Below are positions 36,001 through 39,000 of a DNA stretch of 64,000 nucleotides, piece after piece. The position numbers were made by a program. The stretch's first letter is position 1. Each line of letters begins with the position of its first letter. Source of the stretch: Cyanobacteria bacterium auto_48_18 (lineage in GTDB: Bacteria; Cyanobacteriota; Vampirovibrionia; Obscuribacterales; Obscuribacteraceae); NCBI GenBank assembly GCA_036170915.1, contig JAVHQC010000029.1, forward strand, positions 64,001-128,000, in the 5' to 3' direction.

Positions 36001-39000
36001 TCACTTTTGCCTGAACAGCCGAAGTATTGAGAATCGCAAGAAGTACAGCCAAAACCAGTTTACTTTTCATGCTTCTGCTCCAAATCTTGCCTTACCTGGG
36101 GCGGCTCTTTAAACCAGTTGGTGTCAAAACTAAAGCCAAAACCAGCTTCTTTGGCACCAAGTTCTGCGCGATATGGATTTTGACAAATATAAATAACACA
36201 CACATTCATTGAGAGAAAAATTGCCACGAAGGCGGTCATGATCGTTTGTGCGAGCAGACTTTCCAGGCAGAAGAAATAAGTGAAAAGCACAATCAAAACA
36301 CCTCCGGCCACCAGTACCGACCAGAGCACGGGGGAGGGATTACTTTTAGCTGATACCATGCGAAAACGTCTGGCCGCAGAGAGTTCTTCAATATTACTGA
36401 TCATCGTTGAATAGCAAGCCGACTCTTTTCCATCGGCAGGATTATAGTGTGTCACTTCATGCCATATTTTTTGATAAGAAGGAATGGTGCCCTCTTTGAT
36501 TTTTCCTTCTTCAATAGCCGACCAGTCTTGATCGACGGCAATCACCGAATATTCGTAGACTGCCTGACAAATATTGTGACGGGTCGGGTCTTTAAAGGTT
36601 TTGGCCAGATGATAAATATTAGAGAGCATATTTGCTTCAGTTATTGCCATTTGCTTGGCAGTATCAACCTTGGCTTGCGAGCTGACCACAATTAAGCCAA
36701 CGACAATGGCATACAGCGTACCGACGATGGCCAGCATCACGCCACCAACCTCGTGACAAGCTTTGCGCGACTCGCTCGAAATGCGCTTACGCACCATGAA
36801 CATACCGCCCACGGCAAGCACAGCACTGCCACCAATAATATAGATGCCATCAACAATTGAATTCATCGGCTTATTTTAGCGACTTTTCGTCAATGCTATA
36901 TTGAAGAATCTTTGTGATAATGAAAACAGAAGTAAATAACGCGCTGAGGCAACTGTGTGAACGATGAGCGATGAACTCAGTATCGAAGGAGAAGTCGAAC
37001 AGTTCGATTTGAATAATGCAGAAAAGATGCTTGTCTTGGCCGCACTTCAACGCATGATGGTTAGAGGAAGGTACAGAAAAGTTGAAGGGGCCAAGCTTGT
37101 TGACTTTCAAAAACTGGTAGCGAAATTTAGTAACCAGGATCTGGTTCGCGTGGGCCGGAAGCATGTTCTGCTTGAAAAAGAGAAGCCAAAGACGCGACCC
37201 CCTGAGCAGTGGTAGCTAGCGTCAAAGGCTTATTTAAAGCAAGCGATATTGTCAATGCATCATTCTCAAAGGCAAACGATAACGCACCGCTTCAGTAATA
37301 TGCTCTTGTGAGATATTCTCACAATCACCCAGGTCAGCAATTGTGCGCGCCAGGCGCAAAATGCGATCGTAAGCTCGTGCCGAAAGACTATATTGAGCCA
37401 CTGCCCGAGCTAAAAGTTCTTTTGTTCTCGAATCAATCTGACAAAATCTATTCAAATCTCGCTGCCCTAAGGTGCCATTAAAATGAAAACCGCCCACCGC
37501 GGTGCGTGATTTATTGCGCAATCTTTGTCGGTCTACAGCCAGTTCAACTCTGCGCCTTATGGATGCCGAACTTTCTTCATTAATACTGCCGGTTAGTTCG
37601 TTTATAGAGAGGCGAGAGACTTCAACTTGCAAATCGATGCGGTCTAAAAACGGACCAGACAACCTGCTCCAATATCGCTCAGCTTGCGTCGAGGTGCAAT
37701 AGCAGTGTTTGACTGGGTCGCCTCGGAAACCACATGGACAGGGGTTACAGGCTGCCACCAGCGTGAAAGATGCAGGATAGGTAAGTGTCTGACCAGCGCG
37801 GGAAATCATTACTGTGCGAGTCTCTAACGGTTGCCTTAAATTTTCTAGATGGCCGCGGGGAAATTCGGTCAATTCGTCTAAAAAAAGTACTCCCAGGTGG
37901 CTGAGTGAAATTTCGCCAGGCTTAGGATGAGCGCCGCCACCAACAAGACCTACAGCTGAAGCCGTGTGGTGCGGGCTACGAAAAGGCCTCTCCGCCACAA
38001 TTTTTTCTTTGTGTTTGAGCAGACCAGCCACACTCCAGAGTTTCGTCAACTCAATGGCTTCGTCAAATTCAAGGGGCGGCATAATGCTTGGTAAGCGCTC
38101 TGCTAGCATAGATTTACCAGAGCCTGGCGAGCCGACCATCATAATGTTGTGTTTACCGGCCGCTGCAATCTCTAAGCCGCGTTTAGTGGCGCCCTGCCCT
38201 TTAACATCGCGAAAATCTTTATGATGAACAACGCCAGATGCGGCACGAGCAAACTGAGCGCGACTGGCGCCACCATAAGTAGTGCCGTTCTCTAAATTTT
38301 CGGCTATCTTAAATACTTGCATTAAGTGCGAAACCGGATAAACTTTTAACCCTTCAACCAGTGCGGCCTCTTCCGCATTGCCTTCAGGTACGACTATGCC
38401 TTTAGCGCCGGCCTTACGTGCGGCTACTGCAATAGGCAGCACACCTGAGACCGGCCTTACAGATCCGCTAAGAGACAACTCACCTACAAACCAGAAGTCA
38501 GCGATATTATCAAAAGGCATCAGGCCAGTGGCGGCCAAAATACCTGTGGCAATGGGCAAATCGTATGCTGGGCCTTCTTTGCGAATGTCGCATGGTGCCA
38601 GATTAACTACCCATTTCTTGCCAGGCGGTATAAAGAATGAGCAGGCCTTAATGGCCGCCTTTACCCGCTCTTGCGCTTCTTTGACTGACGCGTCCGGTAA
38701 GCCAACCACGCTGATTGTGCCGAGCCCCTGACAGCAGTCGACCTCAACTTCAATTGGATGTGCGTCAACACCCTGTACCGCACCAGAGAAAACACGTGCA
38801 AACATAAAATACCTCTCGTTACTTGAACCGCTCAAAAATTGCCCCTATTAGTAGCAACGGAATTTGAGGCAAGAAAGTTCAATTTTTCGGCAAGATTTTA
38901 TGCAATTATTTTTTTGTCTGGTTTTTCGGCGAGCTCTTCGATGCTGAGTTTTCAATTTTTGTCAGCACAGCTCGGGCTTCTACGTTATCAGGATGCTTAT

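What a model noticed while it worked through the whole genome (the two positions that open the first line are those of the whole stretch)
37252..38890. ECF-type promoter marks a natural-competence regulon in Obscuribacteraceae
A promoter TTGAACT-N15/16-CGT(T/A/C) stands 20-80 nt before comM (g02938), comEC (g02293, C22:342265), comF (g03553), radC (g03974), yraN (g04046), xseA and priA, and before an ECF sigma/anti-sigma/Spy-like operon (g02436-38, C23:45720) that carries it itself. Late competence and recombination genes of this non-photosynthetic cyanobacterial family are thus under one autoregulated ECF sigma factor.
Evidence so far: A matrix trained only on the nine IS1595-derived copies ranks comEC, radC, comM, xseA, sigma g02436 and yraN among the top 27 of 4392 upstream regions; comF comes from the regex scan, and spacers of 16-17 are enriched (40 and 51 against 18-28; call 57). 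Relatives: comM 24 of 24 Obscuribacteraceae, 0 of 2 in the sister family (TAGAACTT variant by eye), 0 of 22 in other Vampirovibrionia orders; comEC 23 of 23 in the family, 0 of 1 in the sister family; 0 hits on the opposite strand. Sigma g02436 orthologues carry it in 22 of 23 genomes, the other ECF g01904 in 0 of 15. Paper searches list nothing on this lineage's competence control.
(Added by a program. Inside this text positions count along the whole contig: contig position 64,001 is position 1 of the stretch shown here. "Call 12" and the like, gene names such as g00115 and contig names such as C1 are that model's own, and its searches are not shown. The text may have been shortened before it was handed on; [...] marks where a part breaks off. 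The agent that wrote the report below was given it as the finding of a first reader that could run no searches.)

Follow-up and report, generated by a model that had tools for sequence, protein, structure and literature searches.

The report
ECF-sigma regulon for DNA uptake
In an uncultured family of non-photosynthetic cyanobacterial relatives, one stress-type sigma factor appears to switch on the genes for importing and recombining foreign DNA together with cell-envelope stress genes, a way of controlling natural competence that is so far inferred from sequence only.

Summary
Confirmed and extended. TTGAACT-N16-CGT(T/A/C) is a real ECF promoter: 44 strong sites at spacer 16 against 0-4 at other spacers, one 51 nt before comM. 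Family loci carry it before comM 29/29, comEC 28/28, comF 27/27, dnaE 29/30, xseA 6/6, yraN 7/7. Corrections: recA does carry it (21/23, about 360 nt upstream); dprA has a variant in 13/29; priA and radA are peripheral; pilB has none (0/47); the sister family has a TAGAACT variant. The sigma (C23:45720, with membrane zinc anti-sigma and Spy-like gene) is supported by autoregulation (30/30), matching distribution, and a reduced genome that keeps the DNA core but lacks the other ECF sigmas. Envelope genes share the promoter, so this is a joint competence/envelope regulon whose DNA half is the more widely kept. New members: a secreted Ada-like zinc protein (candidate stand-in for the missing ComEA) and DDE-less IS1595 derivatives whose DprA-type winged helix is modelled on ComM. 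No transcript data. The scan earlier reported the IS1595 derivatives and similar ECF-competence promoters in other phyla.

The parts
38876..38882 (-). -35 element TTGAACT of the ECF promoter
   Evidence: invariant TTGAAC in 29 of 29 family comM loci apart from one ATGAAC
38860..38875 (-). 16-nt spacer beginning with a T-rich tract
   Evidence: T-rich first four spacer positions in the matrix
38856..38859 (-). -10 element CGTT
38812..38817 (-). ribosome-binding site GAGAGG of comM
   Evidence: seen in the sequence
37252..38805 (-). comM (YifB family Mg-chelatase-like AAA+ helicase), 517 aa
   Evidence: TIGR00368 595.7 bits, cut-off 362.4
38906..39709 (-). TPR lipoprotein gene ending 24 nt before the -35 element; possible source of read-through into comM (context, not a regulon member)
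   Evidence: no terminator-like or sigma-70-like site in 38700-39100

Best explanation
TTGAACT-N16-CGT(T/A/C) is read by an Obscuribacterales-specific ECF sigma factor (G000 C23:45720), encoded with a single-pass zinc-binding anti-sigma and a secreted Spy/CpxP-like protein. Inferred: an envelope signal inactivates the anti-sigma, the sigma amplifies itself and transcribes about 45 units. The conserved core is the late, cytoplasmic and inner-membrane half of natural transformation: DNA import (ComEC, ComF), strand exchange and D-loop processing (RecA, ComM, YraN, RadC, XseAB, RecJ) and a boost of the replicative polymerase DnaE. Dedicated genes have the site 24-70 nt from the start with no sigma-70-like -10 after it; recA and dnaE have it as an extra upstream promoter. 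Envelope-protection genes (Spy-like proteins, TolC-MacAB, DUF1800) are on the same switch, while the type IV pilus is controlled separately. Shown by computation: the motif, its targets, its conservation and the sigma's co-distribution. Inferred: that this sigma reads it, the inducing signal, and that the cells are transformable.
For: Motif excess at one spacer. AAC/-35, T-tract and CGT/-10 are the known ECF promoter layout (PMC5758882, passages), and the sigma has the DxxR motif that contacts CGT (PMC3397946, passages). Family loci with the site: comM 29/29, comEC 28/28, comF 27/27, three of them at 13-14 bits, recA 21/23, dnaE 29/30, xseA 5/5 plus G000, yraN 4/4 plus G000, G018, G031, radC 4 of 5 genomes strongly plus G000, G018. 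No strong antisense hit at these loci. Sigma orthologues (43% identity or more) in 34 of 37 family genomes and none of 24 outside; the exact pattern occurs 4-57 times per family genome, above its control in 34 of 36, and 0-8 times in the 24 others. In G018 (3.0 Mb, 96% complete) the query found only the syntenic orthologue, and the sites stand before comEC, comF, comM, radC, yraN, recA, recJ, dnaE, dnaB. The sister family has a syntenic sigma operon with a changed region 4.2 and a matching -35 variant TAGAACT before comM, comF, recA and radC. General-stress genes use a different class, GGAAC-N16/17-CGTC. uvrA, recN, ruvB, recF, recR, lexA and the ssb genes have no site within 300 nt in G000. 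The set comEC, comF, comM, radC matches the RocR-controlled competence genes of Legionella (PMC12378983, passages); YraN acts with ComM in transformation (PMC13663708, abstract); ComM is transformation-specific (10.1101/2024.10.21.619469, Discussion).
Against: No RNA data. 10 of the 44 strong sites precede the sigma operon or envelope/secreted genes and 4 have no clear target; a matrix trained on either half finds the other (10 of 11 DNA genes in the top 37 of 4299; 12 of 12 envelope genes in the top 58), so the promoter is not competence-specific. DUF1800 keeps it in 23 of 27 family loci. pilB 0 of 47; pilin, pilC, pilD, pilM none in G000; dprA none in G000 and only a TGT variant in most of 13 of 29; no ComEA-like gene found in 40 genomes of the order. 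priA 3 of 13 and radA 1 of 20 in relatives. The sigma of G018 and of the sister family lacks its own site. Sister-family comEC 0 of 2 and yraN 0 of 1 by matrix. The recA site points across the promoter of a divergent crp-like gene and could act on that gene instead. Only 3 of the 10 PF08281 matches of G018 were read; one is a degenerate sigma without DxxR. Kin are not independent.
Confidence: 0.72

Rival explanations
1. It is first an envelope-stress ECF regulon (RpoE/SigW/SigM-like) that has picked up DNA-maintenance genes; it does not produce a competent state.
For: Spy-like gene in the sigma operon and two more Spy-like targets, TolC-MacAB, DUF1800, alpha-2-macroglobulin, secreted proteins; DUF1800 23 of 27; pilus genes and canonical dprA site missing. 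B. subtilis SigM covering radC and radA is recalled, not checked.
Against: G018 has lost the anti-sigma and the Spy gene and its DUF1800 lacks the site, yet keeps it on ten DNA genes. The sister family has it on comM, comF, recA, radC and 0 of 3 DUF1800. ComEC, ComF, ComM and YraN are transformation genes, and the repair genes checked are excluded.
Confidence: 0.17
2. The regulon is real but another sigma (the SigG-like one, its paralogue, the second Spy-linked ECF, or the degenerate sigma) reads the promoter, and C23:45720 is only a target.
For: All four ECF sigmas of G000 have DxxR; ECF promoters of the AAC/CGT type overlap in B. subtilis (PMC5758882); G018 and the sister family have no site before this sigma.
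Against: In G018 the sigma query matched only the orthologue, whereas SigG-like proteins match at about 32% in other genomes. SigG-like sigmas occur across the class where the motif is at chance level and a GGAAC-class site lies inside the sigG-like gene before its anti-sigma. The second Spy-linked ECF operon has its own TGAAAC-16-CGTA site. The degenerate sigma lacks DxxR.
Confidence: 0.07
3. It is a replication-restart or growth-resumption programme (dnaE, dnaB, recA, recJ, priA, nucleotide salvage) in which DNA is imported as food or repair template rather than for genetic exchange.
For: dnaE 29 of 30; dnaB in G018 and a secreted 5'-nucleotidase in G000 and G018; exonucleases XseAB and RecJ.
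Against: ComM, YraN and RadC serve integration of incoming DNA; dnaB has no site in G000 and priA is sporadic. This reading overlaps with the main one and differs in purpose only.
Confidence: 0.04

Closest known systems
Alternative-sigma competence regulons of Bacillota (streptococcal ComX/SigX; SigH of Lactobacillus sakei, PMC3364868, search listing only)
   Same: One alternative sigma and one promoter motif before late competence genes, with recA and radC included (the ComX link to late genes from PMC12378983, passages; recA/radC membership recalled).
   Different: Here the sigma is a typical ECF with a membrane zinc anti-sigma and a Spy-like partner, the promoter is the AAC/CGT type, pilus genes are excluded, envelope genes and dnaE are included, and no pheromone system was looked for or seen.
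RocC/RocR control of comEA, comEC, comF, comM, radC in Legionella (PMC12378983, passages)
   Same: Nearly the same target set: comEC, comF, comM, radC.
   Different: RocR represses translation as a small RNA; this is transcriptional activation by a sigma. No ComEA was found here.
Envelope-stress ECF sigmas with AAC/CGT promoters (B. subtilis SigW, SigM, SigX, SigV; E. coli RpoE)
   Same: Promoter layout with T-tract (PMC5758882), DxxR motif, autoregulated sigma/anti-sigma operon, chaperone and efflux targets.
   Different: Below the curated cut-offs of SigW (132.5 of 209 bits) and RpoE (114.1 of 236); two thirds of the strong targets are DNA-related.
Cyanobacterial SigG-like ECF
   Same: Same phylum, ECF with zinc anti-sigma, CGT -10 element.
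   Different: A separate clade in the tree; the SigG-like sigma (name assigned from recall) is linked here to the GGAAC-class general-stress promoters.
DprA winged helix - ComM interaction (10.1101/2024.10.21.619469)
   Same: The regulon's IS1595-derived proteins carry a winged helix of median 43% identity to the host DprA domain with the interface Glu-Leu pair kept in 29 of 30.
   Different: The domain sits inside a DDE-less transposase shell present in up to 18 copies, not on DprA.

Membership tests
ECF (group 4) sigma with anti-sigma | Regions 2 and 4 only, about 200 aa | tested here: met
   211 aa; PF04542, PF08281, TIGR02937 above cut-off
ECF (group 4) sigma with anti-sigma | Adjacent anti-sigma gene with zinc motif and one membrane helix | tested here: met
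   zf-HC2, hydropathy peak 1.95 at residue 113; an HxxxCxxC-type motif in 30 of 30 sigma loci by a loose six-frame regex; absent beside the G018 sigma
ECF (group 4) sigma with anti-sigma | Autoregulatory promoter of AAC/CGT type | tested here: met
   30 of 30 loci; exceptions G018 and 2 of 2 sister-family loci
ECF (group 4) sigma with anti-sigma | Sigma-dependent transcription from the motif | not testable with these tools
   no RNA holder listed
Late-competence regulon | Shared motif before comEC and comF | tested here: met
   28 of 28 and 27 of 27 family loci
Late-competence regulon | Shared motif before transformation-specific recombination genes (comM, yraN, radC, recA) | tested here: met
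Late-competence regulon | Motif before dprA | tested here: inconclusive
   none in G000; 13 of 29 family loci at 14 bits or more, mostly with TGT at -10
Late-competence regulon | Motif before the DNA-uptake pilus genes | tested here: not met
   pilB 0 of 47; pilin, pilC, pilD, pilM, Tad genes none within 300 nt in G000
Late-competence regulon | Motif before comEA | tested here: not met
   no short ComEA-like HHH_3 gene found in 40 genomes of the order, against 12 of 21 outside
Late-competence regulon | Induction makes cells transformable | not testable with these tools
   needs culture or enrichment experiments
ComX/SigH-type competence sigma | Sigma belongs to the ComX or SigH(Spo0H) family | tested here: inconclusive
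   the best 25 of 102 NCBIfam matches shown are ECF families; no ComX/Spo0H model among them, the rest not seen
SOS/DNA-damage regulon | Covers lexA, uvrA, recN, ruvB | tested here: not met
   matrix scores -4.7 to 3.1 within 300 nt in G000 only; genes found by short motifs
IS1595 insertion sequence (for the winged-helix family in the regulon) | DDE core and terminal inverted repeats | tested here: not met
   NF033547 matches 9 of 17 members weakly; no DDE Pfam hit; no inverted repeat of 18/25 in 350-nt flanks of 10 copies

The most novel reading that the evidence does not exclude
An envelope-sensing anti-sigma/ECF pair is the master switch for transformation in the order Obscuribacterales, and the lineage has rebuilt two parts of the machine under that switch: a secreted, basic Ada-like zinc protein replaces ComEA as periplasmic DNA receptor, and a multi-copy family of tamed IS1595 transposases uses a borrowed DprA winged helix to dock on ComM and steer or damp recombination of incoming DNA.
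Probability: 0.25. Interest if true: 0.85.

Novelty: new variant of a known kind. Interest (0 to 1): 0.68.

Why it matters
How competence is switched on is known for few lineages and differs in each. A sigma/anti-sigma pair with a defined promoter gives a direct handle: expressing one gene should induce the programme, which could make an uncultured wastewater and freshwater lineage genetically tractable and lets the link between envelope stress and DNA uptake be tested. The regulon also names candidates for open slots: a possible non-ComEA DNA receptor among Ada-like zinc domains, whose function is stated to be undetermined (PMC12353581, section 2.2), and transposase-derived proteins that may bind ComM.

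Tried and rejected
RNA evidence: no RNA holder listed for window 37200-39000; no reads were laid. A 14-bit threshold over the whole genome is background (82 hits against 78 reversed), so counts use 20 bits genome-wide; lower scores are used only at orthologous upstream positions. The antisense control was inflated by divergent gene pairs sharing one site and was replaced by spacer-shift and reversed-genome controls. The GGAAC pattern search in five genomes was uninformative because the control pattern is commoner. The idea that the truncated gene at C23:36738 is dprA was dropped: it is a winged-helix IS1595 derivative. The 482-aa HhH protein at C6 is not ComEA-like (no signal sequence seen). 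Spread of the promoter by an active IS was not supported: no inverted repeats, 20-48% identity between copies, unrelated neighbours. Foldseek gave no match at E 0.001 for the IS1595-derived model; a 51-residue match to DprA (3maj) ranked 34th. Searches for longer homologues of the Ada-like protein gave none with the single query and only stand-alone 116-239-aa family members, plus one 491-aa protein, among the best 120 of 202, so fusion to DNA-processing domains was not shown here. Paper searches listed no paper on ECF control of competence genes or on competence in this lineage; the library lacks most subscription papers. No supplements were read; Dataset S1 of the DprA-ComM preprint may bear on cyanobacterial pairs.

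Full report
Setting. The window is G000:C29:64001-128000 of a 4.94-Mb, 86%-complete assembly. The closest records for its sigma and pilB genes are labelled Candidatus Obscuribacter, Obscuribacteraceae or Obscuribacterales. Genes were called with my own script (4299 genes), so some starts were corrected by hand.

The observation. comM lies at 37252-38805 on the minus strand. TTGAACT-16-CGTT is at 38856-38882, 51 nt before the start. In the genome TTGAACT-N-CGT occurs 51 times at N=16 and 3-14 times at the nine other spacers. A matrix trained on upstream hits gives 44 sites of 20 bits or more at spacer 16, 0-4 at six other spacers and 2 in the reversed genome. The layout (AAC at -35, a T-tract, CGT at -10) is that of ECF promoters (PMC5758882, passages). 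No sigma-70-like promoter or terminator was found in 38700-39100, so this may be comM's only own promoter, though read-through from the aspS-TPR genes is possible.

Targets in this genome. The 44 strong sites (identities) divide into: 10 DNA genes (comEC, comM, radC, yraN, xseA, priA, recJ, dnaE, recA, radA; comF scores 17.3); 9 IS1595-derived proteins with a DprA winged helix; 5 DUF6088/AbiEi-like genes; 4 toxin-antitoxin or HTH genes; a secreted Ada-like protein and a 5'-nucleotidase; the sigma operon; 9 envelope or secreted-protein genes (two Spy-like, TolC-MacAB, DUF1800 and others); and 4 without a clear target. A matrix trained on 12 envelope sites ranks 10 of 11 DNA genes in the top 37 of 4299, and the reverse training ranks 12 of 12 envelope genes in the top 58: one promoter class. 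The dedicated genes have the site 24-70 nt from the start with no sigma-70-like -10 after it; dnaE, recA and radA have such a -10 downstream, as expected of an inducible extra promoter. uvrA, recN, ruvB, recF, recR, lexA, three ssb genes and the pilus clusters have no site within 300 nt.

Conservation. Family loci with the site, of those with upstream DNA among the best 30 fetched per gene: comM 29 of 29, comEC 28 of 28, comF 27 of 27, recA 21 of 23 at about 350-450 nt, dnaE 29 of 30, DUF1800 23 of 27 (some rows may be paralogues). Smaller samples: xseA 5 of 5, yraN 4 of 4, radC 4 of 5 genomes strongly and one weakly. dprA: 13 of 29, mostly TTGAACT-16-TGT, decayed in G000. priA 3 of 13 and radA 1 of 20 are peripheral. 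pilB 0 of 47. Fourteen or fifteen genomes in each sample are one genus, so these counts are not independent. The exact pattern exceeds its control in 34 of 36 family genomes and is at 0-8 copies in 24 others; comM of other orders 0 of 12. The sister family has TAGAACTT-15/16-CGT before comM (2 of 3, the third with a changed -10), recA (2 of 3), comF (3 of 3) and radC (G037), but not DUF1800 (0 of 3), comEC (0 of 2) or yraN (0 of 1). The recA site faces the promoter region of a divergent crp-like gene, so it may also interfere with that gene.

Which sigma. G000 has 12 sigma factors, four of ECF size. The one at C23:45720 heads a sigma, zinc anti-sigma, Spy-like operon and has the site in 30 of 30 loci. 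Orthologues of 43% identity or more are in 34 of 37 family genomes and none of 24 others; the sister family has a syntenic, more distant orthologue (tree support 91/87; synteny) whose region 4.2 reads KSRLCYG for RSRLHYG, in step with the changed -35. All carry DxxR, which contacts the CGT element in another ECF (PMC3397946, passages). G018 is the best natural test: the query matched only the syntenic orthologue there, which has lost anti-sigma, Spy gene and own site, while sites remain before comEC, comF, comM, radC, yraN, recA, recJ, dnaE, dnaB, the nucleotidase and the Ada-like gene. I read 3 of its 10 PF08281 matches; the other two are a group-3 sigma and a degenerate sigma without DxxR. 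A second class, GGAAC-N16/17-CGTC, precedes general-stress-type genes such as a Ku-like gene (named from its sequence by recall) and the anti-sigma of the SigG-like factor. In G031 the sites cover both halves: comM, yraN, dnaE, comF, two Spy-like genes, DUF1800 and an outer-membrane efflux gene.

Mechanism. Inferred: the membrane anti-sigma holds the sigma until an envelope cue releases it; positive autoregulation and the co-transcribed Spy-like protein shape the response; the output is envelope protection plus the late transformation machine. The DNA set matches the genes silenced by RocR in Legionella (PMC12378983, passages); YraN and ComM act together on the transformation D-loop (PMC13663708, abstract), and ComM is not used in repair (10.1101/2024.10.21.619469, Discussion). 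A competence-controlled HigB-like toxin-antitoxin pair is known in Haemophilus (PMC6957337, passages). The pilus is outside; a group-3 sigma gene sits within the pil cluster, which recalls SigF control of pili in cyanobacteria (recalled).

Two accessory parts. First, no short ComEA-like gene was found in 40 genomes of the order, against 12 of 21 outside (family hits are in frames of Tex size or about 480-545 aa, checked only in G000). A single-copy secreted protein with a basic His-Cys3 domain is found in 32 of 36 family and 3 of 3 sister genomes and 0 of 21 others, has the site in 23 of 30 loci and folds like N-Ada (pLDDT 93.5; Z 6.5, rmsd 6.1, 61 aligned, next unrelated row Z 2.1). Such domains occur fused to a secreted ComEC-family protein in C. 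difficile and have no known function (PMC12353581, section 2.2). A role as DNA receptor is a guess. Second, the IS1595-derived family is in 31 of 36 family genomes and 0 of 24 others, has the site in 27 of 29 loci and 9 of 10 copies here, and keeps the DprA helix residues that bind ComM in Vibrio. A model of ComM with one such domain scored 0.78, best of 3 controls 0.00; that mark was reached by 116 of 157 solved complexes and 2 of 215 mismatched pairs; runs agree in at least 91% of contacts, partner pLDDT at least 83; the interface is on the ComM C-terminal domain. Because the domain is a close cousin of a known ComM partner, this shows likeness, not binding. The family itself was reported earlier in this scan (e1-7899873).

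Comparison and verdict. It works like the ComX/SigH late-competence regulons but is not shown to be of that family, and it fails two usual membership points (pilus genes, comEA). My ten paper searches listed no ECF-controlled competence regulon and nothing on this lineage. Earlier scan notes describe similar ECF-type competence promoters in other uncultured phyla (e1-1549933, e1-7011378, e1-6961982; not checked here), so the arrangement may be recurrent. Verdict: a real, well conserved regulon; a new variant of alternative-sigma competence control, joined to an envelope response; experimental proof is lacking.

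Noticed in passing
G000 genome-wide (e.g. C4:77486-98682, C35:137289): A second ECF promoter class GGAAC-N16/17-CGTC stands before about 60 genes of general-stress type, many clustered on C4, and inside the sigG-like gene before its anti-sigma; the same internal site is seen in G036, G037 and G039.
   Followed up: partly
G000:C20:164058-165668 (L049): A second Spy-like/ECF/anti-sigma operon with its own TGAAAC-N16-CGTA site.
   Followed up: no
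G000:C29:22330-22760 (L038): Between the crp-like gene and recA a block TTTTGTTGGGTAACAACC...TTTATACCC is conserved across the family just downstream of the ECF site; probably the crp promoter with a regulator site, possibly a leader RNA.
   Followed up: no
G000:C10:180565-230600 (L013, L019): Four toxin-antitoxin or HTH genes share a near-identical promoter variant TTGAACTTTAAT...CGTCT; G018 and G031 also have such genes under the promoter.
   Followed up: partly
G000 C15:59451, C35:228255, C22:30499, C22:109261, C25:105890: Five stand-alone DUF6088/AbiEi-like genes, each with the promoter; no partner toxin gene was evident among the neighbours printed for four of them.
   Followed up: partly
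G000:C26:29079-29160 (L463): A strong site (27.9 bits) followed by a hairpin and no clear ORF, antisense to the 3' end of a CAP-domain-like gene: candidate small RNA.
   Followed up: no
L287 (G018), L288 (G036), L289 (G037): A degenerate ECF-like sigma without DxxR, followed by an anti-sigma-like gene, conserved across the order.
   Followed up: partly
L146 (G000:C6:205974-207422): A 482-aa protein with a sigma-like middle part and several HhH repeats; similar-sized frames occur in many family genomes.
   Followed up: no
G030: 70 pattern hits, many with near-identical spacers and a dozen on one contig (C13), suggesting expansion of a repeated gene or element under this promoter.
   Followed up: no
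L216 (G018:C22:5722): dnaB with an intein, under the promoter in this genome only of the two checked.
   Followed up: no
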